Below, in pieces: positions 3,801 through 52,592 of a DNA stretch of 64,000 nt. This DNA comes from Torpedo marmorata. Taxonomy: Eukaryota. A program made the position numbers and the translations under genes. The notes beneath the pieces were generated by a model that saw nothing but the letters and a program-made list of their open reading frames with translations, was not told the DNA's origin and did not search any database. Positions within the stretch are counted from its first letter, which is position 1, and each line of letters begins with the position of its first letter. The stretch covers positions 90,458,001 through 90,522,000 of the forward strand of contig OZ360235.1 in the NCBI GenBank assembly GCA_977017645.1. Reading direction: 5' to 3'.

Positions 3801-3865
3801 TACAGGAGGCTCTCTCGATGGCTAGCCACCGTGGCCATCAGCGATGGCTGGCCTTGTCGTTTCCC
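850..3865 (-). pseudogene. pol: pol (protease, RT, RNase H, integrase) of Gypsy element 1, frameshifted
   Basis: Protease FLVNTGA (catalytic D mutated to N), [15 protein letters not shown] and YLDD, RNase H VDASG/DRELLA/DHKPL, integrase DIVGPLP...TSDRGAQF; split over several frames. Confidence 0.93.
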
Positions 3866-4530
3866 TGGAACTCGCAGGGCGACCGGCATCGGTGGGACTC
3901 GGAGCCCCATCTTTGGTGGTAGAAGCACCATCTCTCCTTGGACTCGTCCCTGCCTCTTGCCTGCCGCTCCTTTCCAGGGCCTGCCTTGGTCTGGTTGCGA
4001 GACTTCGTGACGAGCCCCACAGTAGCCAAGCACTTCTGTTTCTGCTTCCACAGAATATCTGCCCATACTGCGACTTTCCGGGGGTCGCTGAAATCCGCGT
4101 CAGCCAGGAGCAGTTGGATGTCCTCGGGCAGCTGCTCCAAGAACGCCTGCTCGAACATGACGCAGGACTCATGGTCTCCCAGGAGGGCTAGCATCTCGTT
4201 CATGAGCGCTGACGGGGATCTGTCCCCTAGCCCATCCAGGTGGAGCAGCCGTGCCCCTGTCTCTCACCGCGAGAGCCCGAAGGTCTCAGTCAATAGCTCT
4301 TTGAAGGCAGTGTAAGTGCCTTCTGATGGTGGCCTCTGGATGAAGTTAGCCACCCTGTCTGCAGTCTCTGGATCCAGTGCGCTGACCACATGGTAGTACC
4401 GTGTGGTCTTAGCTGTGATGCCCTGAATCTGGAACTGAGCCTCAGCCTGGTCGAACCACACGCCGGGTTGAACTGTCCAGAAGGTCGGGAGCTTGAGGCC
4501 GACTGCGCTGATCGCTGCTTCGCTATCCAT
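3838..4530 (-). pseudogene. gag: gag of Gypsy element 1, one premature stop near 4264
   Basis: LKLPTFWTVQPGVWFDQAEAQF N-terminus and [18 protein letters not shown] Cys/His motif; ORFs 4264-4530 and 3838-4203 are in the same frame. Confidence 0.9.
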
Positions 4531-7238: not shown

Positions 7239-8759
7239 TTTTTTTTGGAATATTTTATTTAAATTTTTCGATACATGTAATATTCCCCCATCCCTTCTCC
7301 CCCTCCCCCCCAACCCACCCCCCCCTTAAAAAGTAGTACATTTATTTAACAGATATCTATGTATATAAAAAAAAATAAGAAAAAAGATTTTTTGGATTGC
7401 AAAGAGGAGCACCGCCCATGACATATCTCCAAATATCACAAACATACGTTTAGAGGATAATCTCGCAGTTCTAGAGGCATAGAAAATATATCATTACAAA
7501 TTTAATCCCATTACTTGGGTATACGGGCGCCATATTTGCAAAAATGTAGAGTATTTATTCCTCAAATTATATGTAATTTTTTCTAAAGGAATGCAACTTT
7601 GAATTTCAGCGTACCACCTTTCCATATCCAAAGATATATCAGGTTTCCAAGTCACTGCAACACATTTCCTCGCTACTGCTAATGCTAATTTAATGAAATT
7701 CAATTGATAATTTGATAATTTTAATTTAGGTCTGTACCCTCAATATTTCCTAATAAAACTAAATCAAGGGTTTGCGGAAATATAATTCCTGTGACTTGTT
7801 CTAAAAAATTCCGGATGTCTACCCAGAAGGTTTTTACCTTGGGGCAAGACCAAGTTGAATGTATAAAGGAGCCGACATCTTCACCACATCTAAAACATTG
7901 ATCAGATAAATCTGGTTTCATTCTATGTAACTTCTGTGGTGTAAAATATAGCTGATGCAAAAAGTTATATTGAACTAATCTATATCTTACGTTTGTAGTA
8001 TTAGTCATAGAATCTCTACATAAATTTTCCCATACTTGTTTTAATAATTGTAATATTTAGATCTATTTCCCATCTCTGTCTAGATCTATTTAGTCCTTGT
8101 TTAGGAGTTCCAGCTTGTAATAATACATATATCATAGAAGTAAATTTTTTAACAATTCCTTTCCTAGTCAAGAGCTCTACTTCATTACAACTGGGTAGAG
8201 ACATAGTTGGTCCCAGTTTATCTCTCAAATATGATTTTAATTGAAAATAACAAAAAAGAGTTTTATGTGGTATAGCGTATTTATTCCTCAACTGCACGAA
8301 CGACATTAATTGACCTCTTTCGTAACAATCTTCAACATTTACAATCCCGCTACGGTACCAAATATTCAAAAACTAATTATCCCTTGAAAATACTATAAGA
8401 TGATTTTGATTTAATGGCATTTTAGGCGATATGGATCCTCTCATTCCAATTTCATCTTTTATTTTATTCCAAATGTTAAGTAGATGTTTCAGTAATGGTG
8501 TATCTTTACCAGCAGTTATCAATTTTGATTCCCATTTATATATAAATTCTTCTGCTTTCTTTTCTCCTATCTTATTCAGTTCTATATTAACCCACGCTGG
8601 TTTTTTATTTTCGAAAAAAGAAGCAAGGAATCTCATTTGAGCGGCTCGATAATAATTTTTAAAATTAGGAAGTTGTAAACCACCTAATTCGTAATTCCAC
8701 ATTAATCTTTCCATAGAAACTCTTGACATTTTACCTTTTCAAAGAAATTTCCTTACATA

Positions 8760-9953
8760 CCGTATATTTCGGCGTATAAGTCGACCCTTGAAACCCTCAA
8801 AAATGTCTCAAAAAACGGGGGTCGACTTATACGCCGGATATACTTTTGAGACCTTAAATTCAGCTCAAAATCGAGTTCACGCCGATCCGGCGTATAGGTC
8901 GACCCCTGAAAACACGGTTCCGCGTATAGGTCGACCCCTGAAAACACGATTCGGCGTATAGGTCGACCCTGGAAGCGCCTCCCCACCGCCGGCGCCGCCG
9001 CTCCCCGACACCTCCCCACTGCCGGGCGCCGCCATAAACCACCCAGACATTCTACAATTGTAGAGCCCGAGGTCCCCGCTCCTGCCTGGGAGATCGAGCA
9101 CCCCGCTCCTGCCTGGGAGATCGAGCTCCCCGCTACTGCTCGGGAGAACGAGCTCCCCGCTCCTGCCTGGGAGATCGAGCACCCCGCTCCTGCCTGGGAG
9201 ATCAAGCTCCCCGCTACTGCTCGGGAGAACGAGCTCCCCGCTCCTGCCTGGGAGATCGAGCACCCCGCTCCTGCCTGGGAGATCGAGCTCCCCGCTCCTG
9301 CCTGGGAGAACGACGTCCCCGCTCCTGCCTGGGAGATCGAGCACCCCGCTCCTGCCTGGGAGATCGAGCTCCCCGCTCCTGCCTGGGAGAACGACGTCCC
9401 CGCTCCTGCTCGGGAGAACGAGCTCCCCGCTACTGCTCGGGAGAACGAGCTCCCCGCTCCTGCCTGGGAGAACGAGCTCCCCGCTCCTGCCTGGGAGAAC
9501 GAGCTCCCCGCTCCTGCCTGGGAGAACGAGCTCCCCGCTACTGCTCGGGAGAACGAGCTCCCCGCTCCTGCCCGGGAGAACGAGCTCCCCGCTCCTGCCC
9601 GGGAGAACGAGCTCCCCGTTCCTGCCTGGGAGAACGAGCTCCCCGCTACTGCTCGGGAGAATGAGTCCCCGCTCCTGCTCGGGAGAACGAGCTCCCCGCT
9701 CCTGCTCGGGAGAAAGACGTCGCCGCACCTGCATCTTCCCGGCCAGAAGCAAAGGTTTATTTTACTGTTTTTTTTACTTACCGGTACTTGCTTAATTTAC
9801 AGTCGACTTATACGCCGGTCAATGCGCAACATCTCAGGCATCGAGATTTTTGGGGTCGACTTATACGCCGGATATACCATAAAACCATTAAAATGAGGCT
9901 GAAAAAGGGGGGTCGACTTATACGCCGGTCGACTTATACGCCGAAATATACGG
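8760..9953. mobile_element. Non-autonomous Tc1/mariner (pogo/Tc2-like) DNA transposon (MITE) with an internal minisatellite
   Basis: Perfect 27-bp TIR CCGTATATTTCGGCGTATAAGTCGACC; TA duplication at 8758-8759 and 9954-9955; excision restores the L1 frame ELNKYVRKFL. Confidence 0.95.
9074..9715. repeat. 27-bp GC-rich minisatellite, about 24 copies
   Basis: Unit CCCCGCTCCTGCCTGGGAGAACGAGCT with variant types; explains the 9-aa repeat ORFs 8877-9752 and 8753-9205. Confidence 0.95.
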
Positions 9954-16690: not shown

Positions 16691-17802
16691 ACTATTGTTT
16701 TATTATGACTCCTGTTCCTGTGTTATTAGAGTATGAGATGTTGGTTAAAGGAGCAATACAGGTTGTGTTGATGAGCTGAATCCAAGTTTTGAGGGAGAGC
16801 TTTACTGTAACCAAAATCACCACAGCAGGAGAATAAAAGTCCAAGGTCTACATTTTGAAAAATGGTGGCGCGCACAGACGCAGTGGCTCGACGCTCTCCT
16901 TTTTGGTGCTTTTTATGTGTGTTTTCGTCTATATGTTTGTTTGCCGATGTTAAGTTTAGTGAAGCGAATTCCATCTACAGCTGCCAGGACCTTTTGATCA
17001 TAGGATTACAGTGTAACCAGGCCATTACGAGTGAATTCCTGCACTCACGCAATATAGCCAGGACACCGGGCTCTCCCTGGATTGTTGTCGGCTCCGGCAG
17101 GTGTCGGAGGCAGAGGAGACACAGGAAGCAGAAGCGTGGACGCAGGTCTGGCCTAATTGCTAGGCTAAGGAGACAACCACACAAACCACCGCTACCCAGT
17201 ATTTTTCTCACTAACGCCAGATCCATTACCAATAAAATGGACGAATTGAATCTACAGATCTCCGTGAACAAACTCATTGAGGACTATTGTATTCTCTTAA
17301 TACAGAGACGTGTCTACACCCACTTATCCCAGACGTAGCCATTGAGCTAGCAGGCCGCACAGCATTTCGCTGGGATAGAAACAAAGACTGCGGTAAGAGC
17401 AAGGGAGGGGGGGGTTATGCATTTACATACACAACAACTGGTGCACTAATACCAAGGTCATAGACAGACACTGTTCTTCTGACTTGGAGTACCTGACAGT
17501 TAAATGCAGGCCTATTTACCTTCCACGTGAGCTTACCGTTGTTATAGTCACAGCAGTTTACATTCCACCGGATGCTAACGCTAGCATAGCTTTCAGCTAC
17601 CTGCTCAGTGCTATAAATTCACAACAGTGCACCTATCCCGAAGCAGCCCATATCATAGCCGGTGATTTTAACCATGCAGATCTAAGGGCAGTTCTCCCGA
17701 AATTTGAACAACACATCAAATGTGCTACTAGGGAGAAAAACACAAGATGAAGTTTATTCAAATATTAGGAACGGTTTTAGGTCAACATCACTACCACACT
17801 TA

Positions 17803-19457
17803 AGAGTAAACTGTATTAAAATGAATGTTTTTCCAAGAATTCAATATCTTTTTCAATCGATTCCTTATGGTATCCCAAATAAATTTTTTAAGGATTTAAA
17901 ATTTGTTATTAGGAAATTTTTATGGAAAGGAATGTTGGCAAGAGTAAGTATAGATAAATTAACATGGAATTATGAGATGGGAGGATTGCAACTTCCCAAT
18001 TTTCAGTATTATTACAAAGTAGCTCAATTAAAATTTATTAATGAATTTTTTGATTCAACTAAATCTTCTGCTTGGATTAATATAGAATTGAATAATATAG
18101 GAGAAATACATAAAGAAGAGATTATTTATAAGTGGAATTCTAAACTGTTATCAGTTAAAAAGAAAAATTCACCAATCATTAAACATTTGTTGGAAATTTG
18201 GTCACAGGTAGATAAAGAGATAGGTCGAAAAGGATCAATTTCTTTAAATACACCAATATACCAAAATCCGCTTATACCATTTTCTATTGACAATCAGTTA
18301 CTTAAATTATGGTTTCAAAAGGGAATTAAGACCTTAAAAGATTGTTTTGAAGCTGGTAGATTCATTACTTTTCAAAGGTTAAAAGAAAACTTTAATATAT
18401 TAGACAATACAATGTTAGTTTATTTTCAAGTTAAAGCCTTTTTGACTGAGAGATTAGGGAATGAATTAATAGCACCAAGACAAAATGAATTGGAATTGTT
18501 AATTACTAAAGTTAATATTAATAAGTTTATATCACAAATGTATAAATTATTTCAGAGAAAGATGTCTAAAGTAGGGTTACATAAATCTAGATTAAAATGG
18601 GAATTAGACTTAAATGTTAATATAGATGAAAATCATTGGAAAGAGTTGTGTAAATTAAGTATGACTAAAGTTATTAATGTTAGATATAGATTAGTACAAT
18701 ATAATTTTTTTTCATCAATTATATTTAACACCTAAAAAATTGAAGAAATTTAATCCAGCGTTATCAGATATGTGTTTTAGATGTAAAAGTGAAATAGGTT
18801 CTTTTGTACATTGTACATGGTTATGTTCAAAAATTCAAGATTTTTGGTTGAAAGTTAAGAATTTTTTAGAGAGAATTTTTAATGTTGAGTTTACAATGGA
18901 TCCTATGTTATTTTTATTTGGAGACATTAAAAAATTTAGTATTAGAAATAGATTAAATATGTACCAAGTAGAATTTCTACGTATAGTATTAGCAGTTTCG
19001 AAAAAGTGTATAGCTATTACTTGGAAGTCGGATGTGGATTTAAATTTAGAACGATGGCATGCAGAGTTACGTTCATGTATACCATTAGAAAAAATTACTT
19101 ACAATTTGCGAAATAAATATCATTTTTTCTTGAAAATTTGGGGCCCATACATGAGAATTATGGGTTTAACAATTTAAATTCTCTAGATATCGGATCCACT
19201 GGCGAAAATAACCTCTATGGTAAATTAGTTTGAAGTTTGTTGTCTCCTCACCCTATTTTTTCTATCTTTCTTTTTTCTTTTTCTCTTTCACTATATTTTT
19301 ATTTTTAGAGTAGTGGGGATATAGGGGTTAGGGAGGGGAGGGTGGGAAGGGGGGGAGAAAATGTATATCACATGTATTTTTGAAATATATGCAAAATTAT
19401 TTTATGTATTCTGTGATTTAAAAATTTAAATAAAATATAAAAAAAACAAAAAAAAAC
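17803..19457 (+). mobile_element. 5'-truncated L1 (ORF2 C-terminal part, G-rich 3' UTR, polyA) inside Rex1
   Basis: 17-bp TSD CATCACTACCACACTTA at 17786-17802 and 19458-19474; CFRCKSEIGSFVHCTWLC; A-tail at 19439-19456. Confidence 0.95.
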
Positions 19458-21167
19458 CATCACTACCACACTTAGGCCAGTCAGACCATCTATCCATATT
19501 CTTAACCCCATCATACACCCCCCTCAGGAGAAAAGTTCAACCCATCACAAAGACTGTCAAGACGTGGCCTGAAGGATCTTCCTTGCAGCGGCAGGATTGC
19601 TTTGAAAGGACTACTTGGGACATTTTTGAGGACCAGGACTTGGAGGAGTACACATCAACTGTACTCTGCTACATACAGATCTGTGTTGACAATGTCATCG
19701 TCGATACACACATCCGGGTGTACTCCAACCAGAAGCCCTGGATGACAAAGGAAGTTAAAACTCTCCTCAAGGACCGTAACACTGCCTTCAGGTCTGGTGA
19801 CAGAGCCCTATACAGCGCTGCTAGAGTTAACCTGAGGAGAGACATCAGGGATGCTAAATCGGCCTACAAGAGGGAGATCGAGGACCACTTCACCAATAAC
19901 GACCCACGGCGGGTGTGGAAGGGCATCCAGCACATCACTAACTACAAGATGAGCAATCGTACGACTGTCGACGGTGATGCCTCGCTGGCAGAGGAACTTA
20001 ACTGTTTCTTTGCTCGCTTGGAGGTGAAAGCAGCGGAGACGGACGTAACACGTCCACCAGCCTCCAACAGTCACACCCTCACTGTGCAAGAGCATGACGT
20101 GCGGCGGGTACTTAGAGCGGTGAATCCGAGAAAAGCTGCCGGCCCAGATGGTGTGACAGAAAGGGTGCTGAAGGAATGTGCAAACCAGCTCTCCGAGATC
20201 TTCACAAAGATCTTCAACCTGTCCCTGTCTACATTCACCATCCCACCTTGCCTGAAGTCTGCCACAATCATTCCACTGCCAAAAAAGACAGTCATCAGCG
20301 GCCTCAACGATTACTGTCCGGTAGCGCTCACACCGGTCATCATGAAGTGCTTCGAGAGGCTGGTCTTGCAGCACATCAAAGCTAGCCTCCCACCCACCTT
20401 TGACCCATACCAGTTTACCTACAGAGCAAATAGGTCCACAGAGGACGCCATTGCCACTGCTCTTCACACTGCACTGACTCACCTTGAACATCAGGGGAGC
20501 TATATGAGGATGCTTTTTATAGACTTTAGCTCTACCTTTAACACCGTCATCCCGGGAAAACTGGTTACCAAAGTTAATGACTTCAGATTTTCCCAACCCA
20601 TCTGTCACTGGATCAAGGACTTTCTGACCAATCGCCCCAGACTGTGCGATTAGGCCCTCACCTTTCCTCCACTCTTAAACTCAGCACCGGCTCTCCGCAG
20701 GGCTGTGCGTTGAGCCCCATTCTCTATGTCCTCTCCACTCATGACTGTGCCCCCACCCATTCCACCAACACCATCATCAAGTTCGCGGATGACACGACTG
20801 TGGTTGGACTTATCTCAGGAGGAGACGAGACAGCCTACAGGGATGAAGTCCAAAGACTGACAGCGTGGTGTTCAGAGAACAATCTCGTCCTGAACTTCTC
20901 AAAGATAAAAGAACTCATAATAGACTTCCGGAAGAACAGTGCAGACCCTGACCCACTAAACATGAATGGGGACTGTGTGGAAAGGGTCACTGCTTTCAGG
21001 TTTCTGGGTACGCACATCACAGAAGACCTCTCCTGGTCTGCCAACACCACCTCAGTAGTCAAGAAGGCACAGCAGCGACTCCACTTCCTGAGGATTCTCA
21101 GGAAAATCAACCTGCAGGAGAAGCTGCTGATGTCCTTCTACCGCTGCTCCATCGAGGGTGTTCTGGC

Positions 21168-21265
21168 ATACTGTATTCCTGCGTGGTATGCCAGCTGTTC
21201 ATACTGTATTCCTGCGTGGTATGCCAGCTGCTCATACTGTATTCCTGCGTGGTATGCCAGCTGCT
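21168..21265 (+). repeat. 33-bp tandem triplication in the Rex1 ORF
   Basis: CATACTGTATTCCTGCGTGGTATGCCAGCTGYT x3, encoding YCIPAWYASC x3. Confidence 0.95.
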
Positions 21266-21984
21266 TAGCAGCGGACAGGAGAGTTCTTCAGAGGGTCATC
21301 AATATTGCTCAGAAGATCATCGCCTGCTCACTGCCCTCTTTGGAGGATTTATTCAGCACTCGCTGCCTCAGTAGAGCAGCCAACATACTGAAAGACCCAT
21401 CCCACCTTGGACATCATCTGTTTGAGCTGCTTCCCTCTGGTAGATGCTTCAGGTCCATTAAATCACGGACAAACAGACTTAAGAACAGCTTCTATCCCAG
21501 AGCCATACAAGAACTGAACACTGCCAAGCACTGACACCGATTGGTTGGGATCTGTGTGACTATCAGCACTACAATACTACAGTCACACCTATAGAACAGT
21601 TATATACAATTACAACTGTACCTTTTTATGTATATATTCCGGACTGCATTATTTGTATATAGAGCCACTACATTACAACTGCACTTTGTATGTAAATATT
21701 CCCAACTGCACTACTTGTATTGAGGGCCACTGCAATTTTTAATTCCAGTAAATGTGCAATATCCAGAAGTGCAATATCTCAATATCTCAGTTGCTTTCGT
21801 ATTGTTTTATTGCTATTGTATTGTTTTATATCTTTTTGTTTTCTTTTTTTAATTGCTGTTTGATTGTGTGAATGCACCGTTAGGATTGCTAATTAATTTT
21901 GTTGTACTCTGTGCAATGACAATAAAGGAATATCTATCTATTTAAATTAAAATCATTTGACTTGTAGAATTTTTTTTTGAGAGA

Positions 21985-22218: not shown

Positions 22219-22308
22219 TCTATTAATTTAAAAATGGACTTGTTTTTCTACCTCTTACATAAAATAGAGACCATGAAGACGTTTTAAAACTGTACTTTTG
22301 CTACTAAT

Positions 22309-22935
22309 GTGTCAGTTATAAGTAAAGAAAAGGACAAAGTAAATAAGGTAAAGGAAAGTTTGCCTAATGAAAAGAGTTGTTTGTTCTGTAAAGGTGGACA
22401 TACTTTGGAAATGTGTTTACGATTGGAAAAGAAGGAACATAAGGAAAAGATCGCTTTCTTAAAGGAAAATGGAATATGTTTTAGCTGTTTGTGTAAAGGA
22501 CACATCAGTAAAAACTGCGAGAAGCGAATTAATTGTAACATATGTAATTTGAAACATCCTAGAATTTTGCATATCCATAACAGAAACAAGGAATTGGGAA
22601 AAGAGCAAACAGAAACAAAGGAAACAACAGAAAATAATGTTATAACCTCGGTTCAGACAAGTGGTCTTACTGGGGCTGGTGTGGATAACTGCAAACTTTC
22701 AATAGTGCCTGTACAAGTCAAGGCCAAGAAAGGGGATGTAATAGTAAAAACATATGCATTTTTAGACCCAGGCAGCACTGCATCCTTTTGCACGGAAGGA
22801 CTAATGAATAAACTTAATATTCAAGGAAGAAGAACAAGAATTATGTTAAAAACCATGGGACAAGAAAAGGTTGTTGAAACTAACATTATAACAGGCTTAG
22901 AGGTTGCTGGATTGGATGACAAAACATTTACCTGA
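22309..22935 (+). CDS. gag: BEL/Pao gag Zn knuckles and aspartic protease (partial)
   Basis: 208-aa ORF with three CCHC/CCHH knuckles and a DPGS active site. Confidence 0.85.
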
Positions 22936-24211
22936 AATTAATTCTGAGATAGAAATGCTGATTGGTTCAGATGTGCCAAAGATTTTGGAACCACTAGAAG
23001 TAATACAGAGTAAAAGGAATGGACCTTACGCTATTAGAACCAAGCTTGGTTGGACAATCAGTGGACCACTGGAAAGAAATAATGATATTGCTCAGGAACA
23101 GTTAGCAATAAATATTAATAGAATTTCGGTTGTGAAAGTTGAAGAGTTAAGCGAAGAGCAAAAAACTGTGAATAAGAAAATCACTTTTGAAGAAAAGAAA
23201 ACAGATCAATGTGAAAATAAATCAAGGGTATTTAAAACAACATTGAAGGAATTGTTTTCACCAAAAATGAATGAAAGTGAAGTATTAGAAAATGTTGCAA
23301 ATAATACTATTGATCATTCATGTGTAATTGAATCCAATACAGGAATAAAACAAGTGACTGAAAACAAATCTGAATGTAGATTTTGTAGTTCAGAGATTAC
23401 AACAGATAAAGCTAACGAAGAAAGATTACAATGTGATGTAAAACTGGAAAACACAAAAAACTGTACTGATGGAATAAAGAATAATGTGAATGATAATTTA
23501 ATGCAATTGAATTCAGAGAACAAAATGTTGAAAGGGGAATTGGAAATATTAGATAATCAAGAAAACAGTAAACAGAAAGATTTAATTGTAAGTAAAACTC
23601 GCAAAGTCAGAAAGCAGAAGAAAAGAATAACTGCTGAAGAAATGAATACAGTTATCGAGGAAAGAGATTCAGCATTATCAAAATGTAAAAGGTTGGAGGA
23701 AGAGATTAATGTTTTGAAAGAGAACAAGTTATTGATTAATAACACAAAACAATTAACAATGCAGAAAGAATGTGATATTGCATTGCAGAAATGTAACAAG
23801 CAAGACGAAGAAATTAAAAAATTTCAAGTTTGTCGCAACAGGATTGACAATGGAAATATCAACGTATCACATGATATTTTGACTTCAGATCAAATTATTA
23901 ATTTCTCAGAAAGAACTGAGACTGAATTGAAAGTTGCAAAATTGGATTTGGAATTGCAGGAAAAGGCAATAGAAACCAGAGTGGTTAAACAGACCTGTTT
24001 AAAATCGAAAAGATCAAATAAATATTCAAATTCCAGTTCTAAGAGTTTAAATTCTTCACATGAGAAGTGGAATACTGAAAAAAGAAATAAAGTGAAACGA
24101 CATGTTGAAGAAGTGCCTTGTGTTAAATTCAAAAGGAAAGCTGTGTCTATTCTGTGTGAGGAAGATCTGAGGTTTGCTGGTCAATGGTTTGGCTCATGGA
24201 TTCTACAGTAG
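22904..24211 (+). CDS. MIPOL1: BEL post-protease segment fused to a MIPOL1-like coiled coil
   Basis: 435-aa ORF; [28 protein letters not shown] matches remembered vertebrate MIPOL1 [28 protein letters not shown]. This is a captured fragment, not the host locus. Confidence 0.75.
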
Positions 24212-40104: not shown

Positions 40105-40295
40105 ATCTAAACTTAACCCCCAACTATGCGCGAATATACTTATGTGGGTGTGGTTATGTGTGTGTGTTGCATATCCAAAACTATTACAGCTCAGGCACGA
40201 TTCTGGAACGTCAGTTCAAAGTTCAGTCTCAGAAAATCCAGTGTTAACATGCAGGCTTTAAATTGATGCAACGAAGTGGTCACGAATTAGTTGGG

Positions 40296-41966
40296 GACCC
40301 TGGTCTAATGTGACGGAAAGACTGAGGGAAATAAATCTAAGTCATGAGGTTATGTTAGATAAATTGAAGGGATTAAAGGCAGACAAATCCCCAGGGCGAG
40401 ATAGTCTGCATCCCAGAGTGCTTAAGGAAGTAGCCCATGAAATAGTGGATGCATTAGTGATAATTTTTCAAAACTCTTTAGATTCTGGAGTAGTTCCTGA
40501 GGACTGGAGGGTGGCTAATGTGACTCCTCTTTTTAAAAAGGGAGGGAGAGAGAAAACAGGGAATTATAGACCGGTTAGCCTGACATCGGTAGTGGGGAAA
40601 ATGCAAGAGTTAGTTATTAAAGATGTGATTGCGGCACATCTGGAAAGTGGTGGAGTCATTGGACAGAGCCAGCATGGTTTTATGAAGGGAAAATCGTGTC
40701 TGACGAATCTTATTGAATTTTTTGAGGATGTAACTAGTAGAGTGGATAGGGGAGAACCAGTGGATGTGGTATACATGGATTTTCAGAAGGCTTTTGATAA
40801 GGTCCCACACAGGAGATTGGTGTACAAACTTAAGGCACACGGTATAGGGGGTATGGTATTGAGGTGGATAGAAAATTGGTTGACAGATAGGAAGCAAAGA
40901 ATAGGAATAAACGGGTACTTTTCGGAATGGCGGACAGTAACTAATGGGGTACCACAAGGCTCAGTGGTAGGACCCCAGTTATTTACAATATATATATTAA
41001 TGATCTAGATGAGGTAATAGAAAACAGCATTTCCAAGTTTGCAGATGACGCAAAGCTGGGTGGCAGTGTTAGCTGTGTGGAGGATGTTAAGAGGGTGCAG
41101 GGAGACTTGGACAGGTTGGGTGAGTGGGCAAATGCATGGCAGATGCAATATAATGTGGATAAGTGTGAGGTTATCCACTTTGGTGGCAAGAATGGGAGGG
41201 CTGAGTATTATCTTAATGGTATCCGATTAGGAAAAGGAGAGATGCAAAGAGACCTGGGTGTCGCTGTGCATCAGCCATTGAAAGTGGGCATGCAGGTGCA
41301 GCAAGCAGTAAAAAAAGCGAATGGTATGTTGGCGTTCATATCAAGAGGATTCGAGTACAGGAGCAGAGAGGTATTGATGCAGTTGTATCGGGCCTTGGTG
41401 AGACCTCACCTGGAGTATTGTGTTCAGTTTTGGTCTCCTTATCTGAGGAAAGACATCATTGCCATAGAGAGAGTGCAGAAAAGGTTTACTAGATTGATAC
41501 CAGGGATGGCAGGACTTGCATATGAAGAGAGGCTGGATCGACTAGGCTTATTCTCGCTGGAATTTAGAAGATTAAAAGGAGATCTAATAGAAACGTACAG
41601 AATTCTTAAGGGATTGGACAGGCTAGATGCAGTAAGGTTGTTCCCGATGTTGGGGAAGTCGAGAACCAGGGGTCACAGTTTAAGGATAAAGGGGAAGTCT
41701 TTTAGGACTGAGATGAGAAAAAAAATTTCACTCAGAGGGTGGTGAATTTGTGGAATTCTCTGCCACAGGAAGTAGTTGAGGCCGATTCCTTAGCTATATT
41801 TAAGAGGGAGTTAGATTTGGCACTTGTGACTAAAGGGATCAGGGGATATGGAGAGAGAGCTGGTACTGGGTACTGAGTGGATGATCAGCCATGATCAAAA
41901 CGAATGGCAGTGTAGGCTTAAAGGGCCAAATGGCCTACTCCAACATCTATTTTGTATGTTTCTATG
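40296..41966 (+). mobile_element. 5'-truncated CR1/HER1 LINE (RT domain), young with few frameshifts
   Basis: NYRPVSLTSVVGK, DFQKAFDKVPH, GVPQGSV, SKFADD, YCVQFWSP; CR1 3' tail. Confidence 0.96.
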
Positions 41967-44466: not shown

Positions 44467-44727
44467 TGATGTACCTATCAATGACAGACGCGAGTCTAGA
44501 AGTGCAGGAATTAATAGGCTTTTAATACCAGAATCAAGGCCAGGGCTAAGCTACACCTTGACCTGGTGATCCCTGCTGGATTGTCCCGGAACTGAGGGAG
44601 GAGTCAATGGCTCAAGGCCTTTATTCCAGGGAAAGGGGGGAGGAGTCACCGGGACAGACAGACAGGTCATGGTCATACTCGCCTCAGGCCACAATACCTA
44701 TATACATACTAAAAGTGGTTTACCACA
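44467..44727 (-). mobile_element. Solo LTR related to Gypsy element 2
   Basis: TGAT..CCTATCAAT ... AGTGGTTTACCACA termini as in 47694-47946; TSD AGCCT at 44462-44466 and 44728-44732. Confidence 0.9.
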
Positions 44728-46459
44728 AGCCTATGACCGCTCAAAGTAAGGAAAGCATTCAGGATAATGCATCGAGAGCCCAAGGGACAGAGATATGGTG
44801 GATGGTGAGAAACTTTTGTCACAAGAGTGATGCCCAAAATTAAATGATATAAATTCAAAGTGAGGAGTAAGAGGGGCTCTCACCACGAGGGTGGTTGTAA
44901 TTCTGGACGCACTGCCTGAGAAGGTAGTAGAGGTGGGCACTCCCACAACTTTTAACAAGTGTCCAGATGTCCACTTAAATCACCAAGGCTTGTGAATGGG
45001 ACAAGTGCAGACGGGTACTTGTGGTCAGCATGGATATAGTGAGCTGAAGGCTATGTTTCAGCGCTGTATAGTTCGATGACTTTGACACAGGTATAGATCC
45101 ACAATAACCATCTGATATCCATTGAAGTACAGGGACACCGTTCAGGGTATTTAAAAGGGGTAACGGTGAACTCTGGATCTTAAGGCAGAAACTGTTAAAA
45201 TGCCCAAAATACTGGAAAACTGTTTCCTTTGAAACCGTTTATTTTTGGTGATTTCTATTGTGCAACGATGTGGCGTGACATTGAACTATCAGAATTGAAC
45301 TTCTGGATTATTTTATAATACCGATCATTTTCCTTTGCCCAGAAGTTTGAGTGAGCAGTTATTTTCCACAGTGCATCGTGATCCAGCTTCAGTTTTACAC
45401 TGAGAGTAAATCGCCTTTTAATTGTTCCTGAGTGAAATCATGGCAAACAGAAAATTGGACAGGGTACTTTTGATCCCCATCCATGTGAGTACATTGCTCC
45501 AGAGAGAACAATCCAAGTTTGTCCAACCTCTCAAGTGGGTCGAGTGTGGGTGGGACATTTTGGTCAGCATGGGTAAGTTGGGCTGAAGGGCCTGTTTCCA
45601 CACTGTATGACACTTTGACCTGACCTTCTCTGTTGTCAGATCCATTTGCAGCATTCCAACGTAGATTGGAGCCCAAAGCTCGAAGCTGGCGTGATCTGAC
45701 TCCGTCTCGGAGCATGTTGCCCCTCCTTTGTTGCGGAGGGGCACACAGCTGACAGTGGGAGAGCCGATGACCACTCTGGCAGGGTCAGGGATCTCGGTGC
45801 AGGAGCATGGATGTGCCAGCAAAGAGCCCAATGCCGCAGGGGTACCGCTTGCTACACCTGGCTCCCCCCGATGTACAATGGATGAGCAGGCTCAGGTGTT
45901 CCGGGTTTGAATCCGTTGCCTGTAGGAAGACCTTTAGTTGCACTCTTGCATCTGGACTGCCCCTTCCATGAAGGTCAAAGTCACTTTGCTGCAGAATTTT
46001 TCCAAGCGACTGCGACAGATCCCTGCGTGCTTCCAATTCATCGCTTGCTGCCACATCGGAGAGGTCACCAAGCATGGTAGTCATATAAAGAAATGGCTTC
46101 ATTTAGTTTCATTTCAGTGAGGAGCAGATATCCAACTTAGTTTCCGTGTAGCACACGAATCTTGGTCATACTGAGGAAATCCAGACTGCTGCGCCCTTTC
46201 AGTGATTCGAACTGCCTTGAGAGATGGATCATGGGAGACGAGGTTTGCCCTCTCCCTCCGTGGCTCCTCACACCACTCTGTCTCCAGTGACAGAACTCCA
46301 ACATAAGAGCCATCCGAGCTCCAGGATCATACACCAGAGATCTCCCATTCAATAGTAAAACACGAAAATCTGTGGACACCGTGGTTGAAGTAAAAAACAC
46401 AAATGCTGGAGAAACTCAGCAGGTTAAACAGTGTATTTTATGTAGCAAAGGTAGAAATA

Positions 46460-46500
46460 CATAACCGACGTTTCGGGCTTGAGCCCTTCATCAAAGTATG
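46460..46500 (-). ncRNA. Minimal hammerhead ribozyme, U3 variant
   Basis: TTGATGA-A-GGGC-TCAA-GCCC-GAAA-CG-TC-GGTTATG. Confidence 0.7.
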
Positions 46501-46677
46501 AGAAAATGCCGGTAGGCGTCCGAACAAAAGAGTGAGGGGGGAAGGGGGATGGCAAAGGCAGGAGATGATAGGTGGAGAAAGGAGGGAGGGGACAACAGCA
46601 AAGAGGGGGAGGAGGGATGGCTAGGTAGCTGGAGAAAAACAGGAAGGACAGGTGAGGGGGGAGGGGAAGGGAACGAC

Positions 46678-47619
46678 AAGACTCTCCCCTTCCTGGATCT
46701 CTCTGTCTCCATCTCGGGAGACAAGCTTTCCACCGACATTTACTACAAACCCTCCAACTCCCACAACTATCTGGACTACACATCCTCACACCCTGTCCCC
46801 TGCAAGGACTCCATCCCCTTCTCTCAATTTCTCCGCCTACGCCGCATCTGTTCCCAAGATGAGGTGTTCCACTCCAGATCTTCTGAAATGTCTGCCTTTT
46901 TCCACAAACGTGGCTTCCCCTCCACCACCATCAACTCAGCCCTCACCCGCATCTCCTCCATTTCCCACTCATCTGCCCTGGCACCCTCTGCCCCCAGACG
47001 CAAAAAACATAGAATCCCCCTCATCCTCATGTACCACCCCACCAGCCACCGCATCCAACACATTATCCACCGGAATTTCCGGCACTTACTACAGGATCCC
47101 ACCACCAGACACATTTTTCCTTCTCCTCCCCTCTCGGCCTTCCGTAGGGACCGCTCCCTCCGCGATTCACTCGTGCACTCATCCCTCCCCACCCATCGCA
47201 CCCCCGGCACCTTCCCCTGTGCCCGCAGGAGGTGCAACACCTGTGCCCACACCTCCCCCCTCACCACGGTCCATGGCCCCAAACAGGCCTTCCAAGTGAA
47301 ACTACACTTCACTTGTACATCCAGAGAACTTATTTACTGCATCCGGTGCTCCCTTTGTGGCTTTCTCTACATTGGAGAGACCGGTCGTAGATTTGGAGAC
47401 CGCTTTGCTGAGCACCTCATCTCCGTCCGCAACAACAGCGACCTCCCAGTAGCCAACCATTTCGATTCCGGATCACACTCCCACACTCACATGTCTGTCC
47501 ATGGCCACATGTACTATCCCACCCAGACTACCCGCAAATTGGAGGAACAACATCTCATATTCCGTCTCGGCACTCTCCAGCCAGATGGCATTAACATTGA
47601 CTTTTCTGCTTTCCACTAA
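46678..47619 (+). CDS. Penelope RT thumb and GIY-YIG endonuclease (partial, open)
   Basis: LPFLDL, YLDYTSSHP, CARRRCNTC, LIYCIRCSLCGFLYIGETGRRFGDRFAEH, LQPDGIN. Confidence 0.92.
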   Translation, partial: KTLPFLDLSVSISGDKLSTDIYYKPSNSHNYLDYTSSHPVPCKDSIPFSQFLRLRRICSQDEVFHSRSSEMSAFFHKRGFPSTTINSALTRISSISHSSALAPSAPRRKKHRIPLILMYHPTSHRIQHIIHRNFRHLLQDPTTRHIFPSPPLSAFRRDRSLRDSLVHSSLPTHRTPGTFPCARRRCNTCAHTSPLTTVHGPKQAFQVKLHFTCTSRELIYCIRCSLCGFLYIGETGRRFGDRFAEHLISVRNNSDLPVANHFDSGSHSHTHMSVHGHMYYPTQTTRKLEEQHLIFRLGTLQPDGINIDFSAFH

Positions 47620-48029
47620 ACCTGCTTGTCGTTCCCTTCCCCTCCCCCCTCACCTGTCCTTCCTATTTTTCTCCAGCTACCTAGCCATCCCTCTGATAGG
47701 CCTATCAATAAGCACTCAAAAGACTATGAGTGGAAACGAACCATAGGCTTTTATTATCATTAAACACAGCTACAGTCGACCTGCAGATCTGATCCCGGAC
47801 TGTGGGCGGGACGGTGGCACAATGGCCTTTATTCAGGTGAGGAAGGGGGAGGGATTACCGGGACACCCAGGGGAGGGGGAGGAGACACCGGGACAGACCG
47901 CAGGACATACTCATACTACACAATACCTAAACAGTGGTTTACCACATTCACCCCTCCTTTTAAAAGAGTCCAGCGGGGTGACGTGACCACAGTGACTATT
48001 TTACAGAAAACATATATTTACATTTAATT

Positions 48030-51000
48030 TTACAGGTCAAGGCGATCCGGTGGTCTGATTCGCCGCTGCGACCTGCGCAGTCCCCGTGGTGACGGGGCGG
48101 GTTGTGGTGATGGGGGAGATGGCAGGATTGTCTGTGAGGTCGCCTCCTGCCTGGCTTCTTGGTGTGTACTCGGTCCCGGCGAGGGTGCTGGGTCTGATGT
48201 GCTGGAAGGGGGATTAGGGAGGGGTTGCAGCAAGTGGTCTTGCCCGTCGAGGGTTTCTTCCGGTGCTCCAGCGGGCGCCAGGTCACGAATTGACACCGTG
48301 TCCTCTCGCCCATCAGGGAAGACCACGTAGGCATACTGCGGGTTAGCGTGCGCTAACTGCACCCTCTGGACCGTCGGCTCATATTTGCTGCTCCGAAGGT
48401 GGTTGCGGAGCAGCACAGGACCCGGGGACGTCAGCCAGGCAGGTAGGGTGGTTCCGGTGTTCGACTTCCTGGGGAAGGAGAAAAGTCGTTCGTGAGGGGT
48501 TGCATTCGTGGACGTGCACAGCAGGGACCGGATAGAGTGGAGGGCTTCGGGGAGGACATCCTGCCAGCGGGAGACCAGCAGTCCCCTGGACTTGAGAGCC
48601 AGGAGCGCGGCCTTCCAGACAGTAGCGTTCTCCCTTTCCACCTGTCCATTTCCCCGGGGGTTGTACCCTGTGGTCCTGCTAGTGGCGATGCCTCGGGTCA
48701 GTAGGTACTGTCGCAGCTCCTCACTCATAAAAGCTGATCCCCAGTCGCTATGTATATAGTTCGGGAAACCAAATAGCGTAAATACCTGGTGAAGAGCTTT
48801 TATGGTTGAGGTAGCCGACGTGTCGGGGCAGGGGATGGCGAAGGGGAACCGCGAGTACTCATCAATAATGTTCAGAAAATACACATTGCGGTTCGTGGAG
48901 GGAAGGGGGCCCTTGAAGTCAATGCTGAGACGTTCAAAAGGGCGGGTGGCTTTGACCAGCTGTGCCTTGTCGGGGCGGTAGAACTGAGGTTTGCACTCCG
49001 CGCAAACCCGACAACTGCTGATCATTGTCCTGACCTCTTCCAGGGAGTATGGCAGGTTCCGTGACTTCACGAAGTGAAAGAGCCTGGTAACTCCCGGGTG
49101 GCAGAGGGCGTCATGTAGGGCGTGTAACCGGTCGATCTGCGCGCTGGCGCATGATCCCCGGGATAGAGCATCGGAGGGCTCATTGAGCTTCCCGGGCCGG
49201 TAAAGGATGTTGTAATTGTAGGTGGAGAGTTCTATTCTCCACCTCATGATCTTGTCATTTTTGATCTTACCCCACTGCTGATTGTTGAACATAAACGCCA
49301 CAGAGCGTTGATCTGTCAGCAGGGTAAAATGCTTACCGGCGAGATAGTGCCTCCAGTGCCTGATGGCTTCCACTTTGGCCTGGGCTTCCTTCTCCACCGC
49401 GGAGTGCCGAATTTCGGGGCCTTGGAGGGTCCGTGAGAAAAACGCCACCGGCCTTCCTGCCTGGTTGAGGGTAGCAGCCAGCGCGAAGTCCGATGCGTCG
49501 CTCTCTACCTGAAAAGGTGTCTCTTCATCCACCGCGTGCATTGTTGCTCGTGCAATGTCCCCTTTTATAAGGTCAAACGCCTTACGCGCCTCCGAAGCAA
49601 GGGGAAATGCGGTGGATTTCACAAGGGGTCGGGCCTTATCAGCATAATTGGGAACCCACTGTGCATAGTATGAGAAGAACCCGAGGCATCGTTTAAGGGC
49701 TTTGGGGGTGGAGGGAAGTGGAAGTTCCAGCAGGGGCCGCATGCGGTCGGGGTCGGGTCCAATCACCCCGTTCTCTACCACATACCCCAAAATGGCGAGG
49801 CGAGTGGTACCAAACACGCATTTGTCTTTATTATACGTGAGGTTTAATGCTTTGGCCGCCTGCAGGAACCTCCGGAGGTTGTTGTCGTGGTCCTGACGAT
49901 CATGACCACAGAAGGTAATGTCGTCCAGGTATGGGAAAATGGCCTTGAGTTTATAGTGATCCACAATCCTGTCCATCTCCCGCTGGAATACTGACACACC
50001 ATTAGTGACCCCGAAAGGGACACGCAGGAAATGGAACAGCCTGCCATCCGCCTCGAACGCAGTGTATGGACGGTCCTCCCTTCGGATAGGGAGCTGATGG
50101 TATGCCGATTTTAGGTCTATCGTCGAGAAAAACCTATACTGAGCAATTTGATTTACTATATCCGCTATTCGTGGTAGCGGATATGCGTCCAGCTGCGTGA
50201 ATCGGTTGATGGTTTGGCTGTAGTCCACCACCATCCTACTCTTGGCCCCTTTTACTACGACTACCTGGGCTCTCCAGGGACTATTACTTCTCTCAATAAT
50301 CCCTCCCTGTAATAATCTCTGCACCTCCGTCTTGATAAACGCCCTGTCCCCCGCACTGTATCGCCTGCTCTTGGTTGCCACCGGTTTACAGTCAGGGGTC
50401 AGGTTGGCGAATAGCGACGGGGGTGAGATCTTAAGGGTGGAGAGGCCACAGGTAGTCTGGGGCGTGTTGTTCAGGAACTGGTGGTTCGCTACAGTGATCG
50501 CAGGGTGGGGACCGTCATACCGCATCGTGACACTCCGTAAGTGGCTCTGAAAGTCAAGACCCAGTAATACTGGCGCACATAAACGATTCATAATAAATAA
50601 GGAGAATTGCCGATACTCTGTCCCTTGTACCACAATATTCGCCACACAAGTCCCCCGGATGTCTGTTGTGTGTGACCCAGACGCCATGGCCACCCTCTGG
50701 CTTACCGGTATGGTAGTCAGGCCACAGCGCTGAACAGTGTCCGGGTGAATAAAACTCTCCATGCTGCCAGTATCAAAAAGACAAGTGGTTTTGTGCCCCT
50801 CCACCAGGATGTCCATCATGGATCGCGACAGCTGGTGGGGAACTCTCTGGTCGAGGGTGACTGATGCTAAGGTCGGGATGTAGTCGTCTTGATCCGCAGT
50901 TACTAAAGATGGCCGCTCCCGTGGGTTGCACATGTCGCTGCTGCTCGCGCTGCAAGATGGCAGCGGTGGAAGTGCCGGAAGTACCGACGTAGGGCTATAA

Positions 51001-51329
51001 GATGGTGGCGCCGGAAGTGCCAGCATCAAAGATGGCCACCTCCACTCTTCGCACGAGGTCTTCGCCGGAAGTGACAGCAGGTAAGATGGCCGCTCCCGCA
51101 TCTCGCACGCGGCGCTGCTCGGACCCGCGCGCGACTTGGAGCGGCAGGCCTTCACATAATGGCCTTTCTTGCCGCAGCTGGAGCAAGTCGCGTTGCGGGT
51201 CGGGCAGCGTTTCCTTTGGTGCTTATCGAGCCCGCAGAAGTAGCACTTCTCGGGCTCGCGGTTAACAACTGCGGCGGTGAGAATAGCGGCGGTAGCGATC
51301 GGGTTGCGGCAAACGGCGGCGGCAGTCAA
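48030..51329 (-). CDS. pol: Gag C-terminus and Pol polyprotein
   Basis: 1099-aa ORF: CSSCGKKGHYVKAC, LFDTGS, YLDD, SDASD..EKEAQA..TDQ, HDALCH..CRVC, D-D-E (SIDFKG, HSDWG, VERE). Confidence 0.95.
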   Translation of the reverse strand: MTAAAVCRNPIATAAILTAAVVNREPEKCYFCGLDKHQRKRCPTRNATCSSCGKKGHYVKACRSKSRAGPSSAACEMRERPSYLLSLPAKTSCEEWRWPSLMLALPAPPSYSPTSVLPALPPLPSCSASSSDMCNPRERPSLVTADQDDYIPTLASVTLDQRVPHQLSRSMMDILVEGHKTTCLFDTGSMESFIHPDTVQRCGLTTIPVSQRVAMASGSHTTDIRGTCVANIVVQGTEYRQFSLFIMNRLCAPVLLGLDFQSHLRSVTMRYDGPHPAITVANHQFLNNTPQTTCGLSTLKISPPSLFANLTPDCKPVATKSRRYSAGDRAFIKTEVQRLLQGGIIERSNSPWRAQVVVVKGAKSRMVVDYSQTINRFTQLDAYPLPRIADIVNQIAQYRFFSTIDLKSAYHQLPIRREDRPYTAFEADGRLFHFLRVPFGVTNGVSVFQREMDRIVDHYKLKAIFPYLDDITFCGHDRQDHDNNLRRFLQAAKALNLTYNKDKCVFGTTRLAILGYVVENGVIGPDPDRMRPLLELPLPSTPKALKRCLGFFSYYAQWVPNYADKARPLVKSTAFPLASEARKAFDLIKGDIARATMHAVDEETPFQVESDASDFALAATLNQAGRPVAFFSRTLQGPEIRHSAVEKEAQAKVEAIRHWRHYLAGKHFTLLTDQRSVAFMFNNQQWGKIKNDKIMRWRIELSTYNYNILYRPGKLNEPSDALSRGSCASAQIDRLHALHDALCHPGVTRLFHFVKSRNLPYSLEEVRTMISSCRVCAECKPQFYRPDKAQLVKATRPFERLSIDFKGPLPSTNRNVYFLNIIDEYSRFPFAIPCPDTSATSTIKALHQVFTLFGFPNYIHSDWGSAFMSEELRQYLLTRGIATSRTTGYNPRGNGQVERENATVWKAALLALKSRGLLVSRWQDVLPEALHSIRSLLCTSTNATPHERLFSFPRKSNTGTTLPAWLTSPGPVLLRNHLRSSKYEPTVQRVQLAHANPQYAYVVFPDGREDTVSIRDLAPAGAPEETLDGQDHLLQPLPNPPSSTSDPAPSPGPSTHQEARQEATSQTILPSPPSPQPAPSPRGLRRSQRRIRPPDRLDL

Positions 51330-51888
51330 ATCGCTGGCAGGGCTGGGGGACGGGGCTGACCATGGCGTCCGAGTTCCGCAGCGCGGCCTCCAGCGTGTGG
51401 GCCATTGAGACAGCAGTACGGAGGTTCAGGTCGGCGTGCTCCAGCAGCCGCTGGCGCACGTATACCGACCTGATCCCCATGATGAACGTGTCCCACTCCA
51501 GCAATTCGACGTGTTCCTCTGCAGTCAGCGCCTTACAGTCGCACGCTCGTACCAGCGACTGTATGTCCCTGACATACTCCACGATCGACTCCCCGGCCCG
51601 CTGTTTTCGCATTAATAGTCTGTACCTTGCGTAGACCGCGTTAACAGGCATCACGTAGATTCTCTTCAGCGCATCCATCGCCTCCGTGTAGGTTTTACAG
51701 TCCCGAACTGTCGAGAATAACAGAGGGCTTACCCTGGACACGAGGACCCTCAGTTTCTGCTCCTCGCTTTCCGCTTTGATCGTCATCATAAAGGACTCGA
51801 GACAGCGTAGCCAGTGTTCAAAAGAGTTACCGGCATCAGGAGCTAGATGATCGATGTCCAGTCGGTCCGGTCTTAGAGAGCTCTCCAT
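51262..51888 (-). CDS. gag: Gag N-terminal part
   Basis: ATG 23 nt after the 5' LTR; VYARYRLLMRKQRAGESIVEY motif; frameshifted relative to the pol ORF. Confidence 0.88.
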   Translation of the reverse strand: MESSLRPDRLDIDHLAPDAGNSFEHWLRCLESFMMTIKAESEEQKLRVLVSRVSPLLFSTVRDCKTYTEAMDALKRIYVMPVNAVYARYRLLMRKQRAGESIVEYVRDIQSLVRACDCKALTAEEHVELLEWDTFIMGIRSVYVRQRLLEHADLNLRTAVSMAHTLEAALRNSDAMVSPVPQPCQRFDCRRRLPQPDRYRRYSHRRSC

Positions 51889-52280
51889 CAGATTTTAAAT
51901 GATAATAAAATTGATAGGCCTATCAATAAGCACTCAAAAGACTATGAGTGGAAACGAACCATAGGCTTTTATTATCATTAAACACAGCTACAGTCGACCT
52001 GCAGATCTGATCCCGGACTGTGGGCGGGACGGTGGCACAATGGCCTTTATTCAGGTGAGGAAGGGGGAGGGATTATCGGGACACCCAGGGGAGGGGGAGG
52101 AGACACCGGGACAGACCGCAGGACATACTCATACTACACAATACCTAAACAGTGGTTTACCACACCCTCCTCCCCCTCTTTGCTGCTGTCCCCTCCCTCC
52201 TTTCTCCACCTATCATCTCCTGCCTTTGCCATCCCCCTTCCCCCCTCACTCTTTTGTTCGGACGCCTACCGGCATTTTCT

Positions 52281-52321
52281 CATACTTTGATGAAGGGCTC
52301 AAGCCCGAAACGTCGGTTATG
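52281..52321 (+). ncRNA. Minimal hammerhead ribozyme, U3 variant
   Basis: Same sequence as 46460-46500 in the opposite orientation. Confidence 0.7.
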
Positions 52322-52592
52322 TATTTCTACCTTTGCTACATAAAATACACTGTTTGACCTGCTGAGTTTCTCCAGTATTTGTGTTTTTTACATCTCCCAT
52401 TCAATGTCTGCTCGGTTCAGGGGCACCTTGCAGTCCAAGACGAGCAGATGTGTAGATGGCATTGCGGTTGATGGAGTGCTGCCCTACCATGCCAATGAAA
52501 TGCAGCATCACTACCAGAGTAAAATCAATGCCCAGACCCTGAACGAAAAGAACTGGCATGGAGAGAAGGAGAGAGAATTTTCATCAGCTTTC

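What the first reader, a model, noticed from the sequence alone, without database searches (positions are those of the whole stretch)
51891..51979. No tRNA primer-binding site: LTR-complementary leader and 18-bp palindrome suggest self-priming
Seen: the 5' LTR is followed (element sense) by ATTTTATTATCATTTAAAATCTG then the gag ATG, with no TGG. TTTTATTATCATT (51898-51910) is the exact 13-nt complement of AATGATAATAAAA in the LTR (51967-51979), which contains the polyA signal. The LTR end and junction form the perfect palindrome ATTGATAGGCCTATCAAT (51910-51927). Known: Tf1/sushi elements self-prime by pairing the PBS with their own 5' RNA, but this element looks Mag-like. Inference: tRNA-independent priming, and/or masking of AATAAA in the 5' LTR.
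Basis: partly seen in the sequence, partly recalled or inferred. Interest (0 to 1): 0.7.

Follow-up and report, generated by a model that had tools for sequence, protein, structure and literature searches.

The report
Self-priming animal Gypsy retrotransposon clade
This jumping gene has no landing site for a host tRNA; that site instead pairs with a stretch of the element's own terminal repeat, and dozens of related families keep the pairing with different letters, so the whole group likely starts copying itself with a piece of its own RNA, a trick proven in the yeast element Tf1.

Summary
The element is a young Gypsy LTR retrotransposon (LTRs 252/253 identical, 5-bp target duplication). Its leader has no TGG and pairs over 13 bases with the LTR stretch that carries AATAAA. 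The pairing is clade-wide: 119 of 127 junctions read in this genome and 40 of 46 related loci from elsewhere have 11 or more perfect pairs. In 34 representative families the duplex starts one base after the LTR's terminal CA, with 31 different 11-mers. Compensation appears even between copies about 1% apart. The perfect 18-bp palindrome is specific to one family. Best reading (0.72, inferred): Tf1-like self-priming with a cut at AAA|RCC; hiding the poly(A) signal is a likely second role. Differences from Tf1/sushi: no chromodomain (0 of 17 proteins), no 'pretzel' U5-leader helix, and a TATA-like/initiator pair suggesting transcription starts 40-63 bases upstream, so the primer may be internal. 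The RT tree puts the clade beside Mag, but grouping with chromoviruses is not rejected (AU p 0.24). No RNA evidence. Not found in the papers searched; this scan noted the same lineage in another ray genome (e1-8031584).

The parts
51912..52164 (-). 5' LTR, 253 bp, TG...CA
47694..47946 (-). 3' LTR, one difference from the 5' LTR
52165..52169 (-). 5-bp target-site duplication (GAGGG), 5' side
47689..47693 (-). 5-bp target-site duplication, 3' side
52044..52051 (-). TATA-like AATAAAGG; 32 nt before the CAGT motif in 124 of 129 junctions that have both (function inferred)
52017..52020 (-). initiator-like CAGT; A at 52019 is the predicted transcription start, 53 nt before the predicted cut
   Evidence: inference
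51967..51979 (-). LTR arm complementary to the leader (predicted self-primer 3' part); contains AATAAA at 51973-51968; predicted cut between 51967 and 51966
51961..51966 (-). 5' strand (GCCTAT) of a second helix next to the main duplex
51918..51923 (-). 3' strand (ATAGGC) of the second helix
51910..51927 (.). 18-bp palindrome over the LTR end; perfect only in this family, 6-7 bp hairpin in other families of this genome
51898..51910 (-). primer-binding position: 13 nt complementary to the LTR arm, starting one base after the terminal CA
51262..51888 (-). gag N-terminal frame (weak PNMA hit); in this copy out of frame with the rest of gag-pol
48030..51425 (-). open frame with zinc knuckle, protease, RT, RNase H, integrase (Gypsy order); no chromodomain
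47947..47961 (-). polypurine tract
44467..44727 (-). solo LTR of a sister family (target duplication AGGCT); full-length members of that family carry the compensated leader

Best explanation
The leader of this Gypsy element pairs on paper with its own LTR exactly where a tRNA would bind, and the element likely primes reverse transcription with its own RNA, which is predicted to be cut at the end of that duplex. Shown: 11-18 perfect pairs starting one base after the LTR's terminal CA across the clade, with changing letters. Inferred: the transcript folds so that the AATAAA-bearing arm anneals to the primer-binding position; the RT's RNase H domain cuts at AAA|RCC (51967/51966), next to a short second helix, as Tf1 RT cuts after base 11; RT extends the new 3' end over U5; the bases between the cut and the poly(A) site allow the first strand transfer; plus-strand synthesis copies the primer back into the leader, which would explain the fast compensation. 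Also inferred: in the families of this genome transcription starts 40-63 nt upstream of the 11-nt core, so the primer would be a longer capped fragment or be cut out at both ends (about 55% against a Tf1-type 5'-terminal primer). The same duplex would hide the 5' poly(A) signal.
For: Position: the duplex begins one base after CA in 34 of 34 representative families; the LTR end is confirmed by a second LTR copy in 9 of them. Covariation: 31 distinct 11-mers; at positions 4-11 own-family pairing is 8.0 of 8, swapped-family 4.26, perfect in 6 of 1122 swaps. Before picking representatives: 40 of 46 outside loci and 119 of 127 junctions of this genome have 11 or more pairs; TGG in 0 of 127. Fast compensation: in the solo-LTR family a C-G to A-T swap at position 12 in 5 of 67 copies about 1% apart, with no copy changed only in the LTR. 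Control: 7 Mag-type copies of the same genome have only 5-7 bp duplexes, and 5 of 7 have TGG. Tf1 precedent: 11-nt primer and RNase H cut (PMC7175516, passages). Second helix longer than its shuffle mean in 28 of 34 families, 4.6 against 3.1 bp (weak family by family).
Against: No transcript end, cut product or primer was observed. The Tf1 'pretzel' U5-leader helix is absent (5.79 against 5.81 in shuffles) and a U5 hairpin is not general. The duplex's far edge has no start-site signature (pyrimidine-purine step in 7 of 34), and pairing runs past 11 nt in 32 of 34, which does not fit a plain 5'-terminal 11-nt primer. A long primer raises an unsolved problem for the second strand transfer. A clear TATA-initiator pair was found in only 3 of 27 outside families. 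8 of 127 junctions have broken pairing, and 2 copies of the solo-LTR family changed only the leader at position 12. The direct tRNA scan was incomplete.
Confidence: 0.72

Rival explanations
1. Self-priming, but the primer comes from the 3' R copy of the arm, or from the partner RNA of the dimer, after a cut at the same AAA|RCC site; the 5' end stays whole as template.
For: It explains the same covariation and needs no start site at the arm. It would be the only workable route if the upstream AATAAAGG were the poly(A) signal: a CA lies 27 nt after it and G/T-rich sequence follows.
Against: The local 5' hairpin is stable and would compete. The fixed 32-nt spacing while neighbouring intervals vary fits TATA-initiator geometry better than a poly(A) signal. 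The AWTAAA in the arm is the clade-wide signal (23 of 34).
Confidence: 0.12
2. The duplex only hides the 5' poly(A) signal or controls gag translation, like the HIV-1 poly(A) hairpin (recalled), and some other RNA such as a tRNA fragment is the primer.
For: AATAAA/ATTAAA lies inside the arm in 23 of 34 families. The duplex reaches the ATG in 5 of 34. The predicted start is upstream of the arm. The tRNA scan covered only 9 anticodons and its positive control failed.
Against: 11 of 34 families have no canonical signal in the arm yet keep perfect pairing. Masking does not need the duplex to start exactly one base after CA in 34 of 34. Leaders are only 16-47 nt and vary freely, with all four pair types at positions 5, 8 and 9, so no fixed host RNA could bind them all.
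Confidence: 0.12
3. The complement is chance in A/T-rich sequence, or a one-off inverted duplication without function.
For: Both arms are A/T-rich in the window's family.
Against: 0 of 40 shuffles reach the observed length in each of 40 outside loci. Compensated G-C pairs are common. The junction pattern has 29,664 matches against 1 for the reversed control.
Confidence: 0.01

Closest known systems
Tf1/Tf2/Tj1 and the Tf1/sushi group (Ty3/gypsy chromoviruses): experimentally shown self-priming
   Same: No tRNA site; the position after the 5' LTR is complementary to the element's own LTR; minimum duplex 11 nt, the Tf1 primer length (PMC7175516); loop of similar size with an adjacent helix.
   Different: No chromodomain (0 of 17 proteins), whereas the seven fission-yeast elements all have one (PMC10085805). 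No 'pretzel' U5-leader helix. Duplex 11-18 bp that usually holds the poly(A) signal. Start site predicted upstream of the arm. RT falls beside Mag in the best tree.
Cigr-1 clade of Gypsy (Ciona; listed under the Mag lineage in a supplement of PMC6238403)
   Same: Recalled, not from a call: Cigr-1 has LTRs of about 245 bp and one ORF of about 1,210 codons. This clade has a 253-bp LTR and ORFs of about 1,190 aa, and is sister to Mag.
   Different: No Cigr-1 sequence was available, so identity is a lead only. The passages on Cigr clades that I saw say nothing on priming.
Mag lineage (A/B and C clades)
   Same: Nearest group in the RT-RNase H tree (SH-aLRT 87); short LTRs; one gag-pol frame in relatives; no chromodomain.
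   Different: Only about 28-31% RT-RNase H identity and a long stem. Mag-type copies in this genome mostly have a TGG primer site and have no LTR-leader duplex.
Predicted self-priming plant elements (Tcn1 Gypsy; TAR Copia with Houba and Osr-1)
   Same: Self-priming predicted from LTR-PBS complementarity outside yeast (PMC6317226, passages); shows that the mechanism is already proposed outside Tf1/sushi.
   Different: Plant lineages; Tcn1 is Tf1/sushi-related and TAR is Copia.

Membership tests
Ty3/Gypsy LTR retrotransposons | LTRs TG...CA, target duplication, PPT, pol order PR-RT-RH-IN | tested here: met
Tf1/sushi group | No tRNA site; PBS position complementary to own LTR | tested here: met
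Tf1/sushi group | Chromodomain at the integrase C-terminus | tested here: not met
   No Chromo or SH3_Tf2-1 hit in 17 of 17 clade polyproteins; both ring on control P0303
Tf1/sushi group | RT groups with chromoviruses | tested here: inconclusive
   The best tree separates them, but holding them together is not rejected, p-AU 0.238; only one of four chromovirus rows is confirmed by a chromodomain
Tf1/sushi group | Three-duplex 'pretzel' (both PBS flanks pair with LTR sequence downstream of the primer) | tested here: not met
   U5-leader helix equals shuffles (16 of 34 above mean); U5 hairpin 6-7 bp in the 7 families of this genome but 18 of 34 overall
Tf1/sushi group | Primer is the first 11 nt of the transcript | tested here: inconclusive
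   No RNA data. Sequence points to a start 40-63 nt upstream in this genome, but an A/T-G step 11-10 nt before the predicted cut is conserved (G in 30 of 34)
Tf1/sushi group | RNase H cleavage of the RNA duplex makes the primer | not testable with these tools
   needs biochemistry
Mag lineage | RT nested in Mag A/B/C | tested here: not met
   Own clade SH-aLRT 100, outside Mag A plus C (95), sister at 87; Mag labels assigned by me from motifs and 'K02A2.6-like' names
tRNA-primed Gypsy elements | PBS starting with TGG, complementary to a tRNA 3' end | tested here: not met
   0 of 127 junctions
tRNA-primed Gypsy elements | PBS complementary to an internal tRNA fragment | tested here: inconclusive
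   Longest match 5-8 nt for 30 leaders against 32 tRNA genes of only 9 anticodons; positive control did not ring
Cigr-1 clade | RT groups with Ciona Cigr-1 | not testable with these tools
   No reference sequence or paper held

The most novel reading that the evidence does not exclude
A widespread animal Gypsy clade evolved self-priming independently of Tf1/sushi and does it differently. The primer is an internal piece of R that carries the poly(A) signal, so one duplex both blocks premature polyadenylation in the 5' LTR and, once cut at AAA|RCC, primes reverse transcription. Copying of this longer primer rewrites the leader as far as the gag start codon allows.
Probability: 0.35. Interest if true: 0.75.

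Novelty: new variant of a known kind. Interest (0 to 1): 0.58.

Why it matters
Self-priming in Gypsy elements is treated as a mark of the Tf1/sushi chromoviruses (PMC10085805, PMC6317226). A second, non-chromodomain animal clade that does it, with about 30,000 junction matches in one vertebrate genome, means tRNA independence either arose again or is older than thought. Such elements would escape silencing by tRNA fragments aimed at the PBS (inference), and annotation tools that require a tRNA site would miss or mislabel them. The many natural compensated variants give a ready rule set for how an RT picks a cut site in an RNA duplex. If the primer is internal and overlaps the poly(A) signal, it would be a priming geometry not described for Tf1.

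Tried and rejected
RNA evidence: no RNA holder listed; run X1 is contigs only and gave the empty-site joint; contig ends of the short outside loci showed no clear poly(A) tail by eye. A DNA search of the genome with the solo LTR found nothing; a pattern search did. Viral contigs held no relative of the clade or of the CsRN1-like RT; one search gave only other lineages. No sushi-type element was found in this genome: PF16297 empty with an empty control, PF24626 gave Gmr1-type loci, PF03732 gave Mag-type loci and one own-clade locus. Perfect palindrome as the functional element: rejected. Pretzel: not found. Start site at the duplex edge: no support. An intron joining the start site to the arm (lead from e1-7809694): no consistent splice sites by eye in the 5 families of this genome that I compared. 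Saci2 clade: has 4-bp duplications and tRNA sites, not this. ESM Atlas gave only unnamed arthropod Gag clusters. The tree is the quick tree (the careful search did not finish) and has no chromovirus row.

Full report
The element. The finding lies at the 5' end of a minus-strand Gypsy LTR retrotransposon: LTRs 52164-51912 and 47946-47694 (253 bp, one difference), GAGGG target duplication, polypurine tract at 47961-47947. Pfam gives protease, RT, RNase H and integrase in Gypsy order and no chromodomain. In this copy gag and the rest are in different frames. The genome is 6.2 Gb and the closest named proteins are from rays and sharks. More distant named relatives at 58-64% are from Trichuris, Trichinella, Actinostola and Ischnura; their leaders were not read.

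Observation. The 13-bp LTR-leader duplex was reached by 0 of 40 shuffles. The predicted fold pairs it, puts a 6-bp helix GCCTAT/ATAGGC next to it, and leaves a 7-nt bulge at the LTR end (z -3.85). The leader arm is unchanged in 30 of 30 family copies; one has a mismatch in the LTR arm.

Covariation in this genome. Full-length members of the solo-LTR family (1,605 pattern matches) differ at three arm positions and their leaders match. A general junction pattern has 29,664 matches against 1 for the reversed control. Of 136 loci examined, 131 parsed and 4 of these were not 5' junctions. Of the remaining 127, 119 have 11 or more contiguous pairs and none has TGG. The search patterns fixed the AAA/TTT end, so the informative part is positions 5-13; pairing falls off sharply after 13-14. 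In a tree of 67 copies of the solo-LTR family, about 1% apart, five share a C-G to A-T swap at position 12 (two may be one duplication) and none has only the LTR change; two copies changed only the leader there. Compensation this fast suggests copying of one arm from the other, as priming would give (inference). Seven Mag-type copies serve as control: 5-7 bp only, TGG in five.

Covariation elsewhere. 87 loci came from metagenomes and from animal-like contigs inside bacterial bins; their hosts are unknown. 49 had a gag start and 46 were scored; three were left out for too little upstream DNA or no ATG. 40 of 46 have an 11-18 bp duplex; of the six misses, four look decayed, one has its LTR arm at the other contig end (by eye) and one I cannot explain (L061). 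I then chose one intact representative per family by eye: 37 rows, three dropped (two mis-parsed, one duplicate family), leaving 27 outside and 7 of this genome. Perfect pairing at positions 1-11 in 34 of 34 is therefore partly by selection. Independent of it are the start one base after CA in all 34, the 31 different 11-mers, and the swap control (6 of 1122 perfect). The arm usually ends in AAA followed by RCC and has G ten bases before that junction (30 of 34).

The palindrome. It is perfect in 37 of 131 parsed junctions; other families of this genome keep 6-7 bp arms, and outside families do not have it. It may be a lineage-specific U5 hairpin, but it is not the core feature.

Mechanism. 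The duplex sits at the only place where a primer can bind, in leaders of 16-47 nt, so self-priming is the best reading. The cut site and the enzyme are inferred from Tf1 (11-nt primer, RNase H cut; PMC7175516). The 5' end of the primer is open. In this genome AATAAAGG and CAGT are 32 nt apart in 124 of 129 junctions that have both, while the intervals on either side vary (83-124 and 51-74 nt). That is TATA-initiator geometry (a similar TATA variant in MLV is recalled) and would put the start 40-63 nt before the 11-nt core. Pairing also continues past 11 nt (positions 12-15: 3.15 of 4 against 1.51 swapped), reaches the ATG in 5 of 34, and the far edge shows no start signature. Against this: the pair is clear in only 3 of 27 outside families, one outside LTR appears to have only about 40 nt upstream of the arm (L086, by eye), and the conserved A/T-G step could itself be a start. 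The families of this genome share one LTR ancestor, so the spacing is not independent evidence many times over. AATAAA or ATTAAA lies in the arm in 23 of 34 families, so masking is a plausible second role but cannot be the only one.

Placement. RT-RNase H is 27-33% identical to Mag-, Gmr1- and CsRN1-type elements. The clade is supported at 100 on a long stem (quick trees, SH-aLRT only) and is sister to Mag at 87. Forcing it together with four chromovirus-type rows costs 11.9 log units and is not rejected (p-AU 0.238), so an independent origin is not shown. Outgroup labels are mine, from domain order, source names and recalled motifs; only P0303 has a Pfam chromodomain. Identity with the Cigr-1 clade is a recalled lead, untested.

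Literature. Ten searches showed no paper describing self-priming in a non-chromovirus animal Gypsy clade. I saw search listings, and passages of PMC3601003, PMC6317226, PMC4600332, PMC11042837, PMC6238403 (plus supplement rows; one PDF and one slide file unreadable), PMC5341516, PMC10085805, PMC7175516, PMC9873768, PMC6934838, PMC12471100 (plus half of its figure and table section and a supplement search), PMC8556966, PMC5006619 and PMC13524379; PMC2774666 had no matching passage. The Levin papers, the Cigr-1 paper and a Repbase-based review were not held, and Butler 2001 was not looked up. Repbase, Dfam and GyDB could not be searched. I recall, without a source, that some Repbase entries mention self-primed Gypsy families, so earlier informal notice is possible. 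Earlier notes of this scan report the same kind of lineage in another ray genome and similar signatures in BEL/Pao and diatom Copia elements; these are unchecked and are not counted as evidence.

Verdict. A real, clade-wide feature that works like Tf1 self-priming but is not a member of Tf1/sushi by the chromodomain and pretzel tests. New variant of a known kind, interest 0.58.

Noticed in passing
G000, pattern: This Gypsy clade has 29,664 5'-junction matches in the genome, in many young families; it is a major repeat of this genome.
   Followed up: partly
window 46382-46680 and 47625-47693 plus 52165-52399: The element inserted into one arm of an inverted repeat of about 300 bp (97-99% complementary) that flanks about 950 bp. 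It looks like a Penelope-type element with inverted terminal repeats (recalled); Pfam found nothing in two frames there.
   Followed up: partly
window 52106-52114 and 52007-52016: An inverted motif (CTGTCCCGG ... CCGGGACAG-like) flanks the TATA-like box in this LTR and, by eye, in two sister families; possibly paired factor sites or an RNA helix.
   Followed up: no
window 1155-4099 (-): Broken Gypsy pol of CsRN1 type (RT and integrase hits; groups with CsRN1-like rows).
   Followed up: partly
window 22288-24211 (+): Frame with a CCHC-like knuckle and a protease-like motif resembling a BEL/Pao gag-protease fragment (recalled); no Pfam hit for the first part.
   Followed up: partly
window 17686-18735, 19430-21534 and 40262-41745 (+): Fragments of non-LTR retrotransposons; RT hit for 20581-21531; the L1/Tx1-, Rex1- and CR1-type labels are recalled.
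   Followed up: no
window 8753-9896: Tandem repeat with a unit of about 30 bp, open in several frames.
   Followed up: no
L086 1-4168: The contig holds two versions of the LTR-leader junction, one with a second copy of the primer-binding stretch about 50 nt downstream.
   Followed up: no
L125-L132: Eight loci of this eukaryotic retrotransposon clade lie in contigs of bacterial genome bins, probably host contamination.
   Followed up: no
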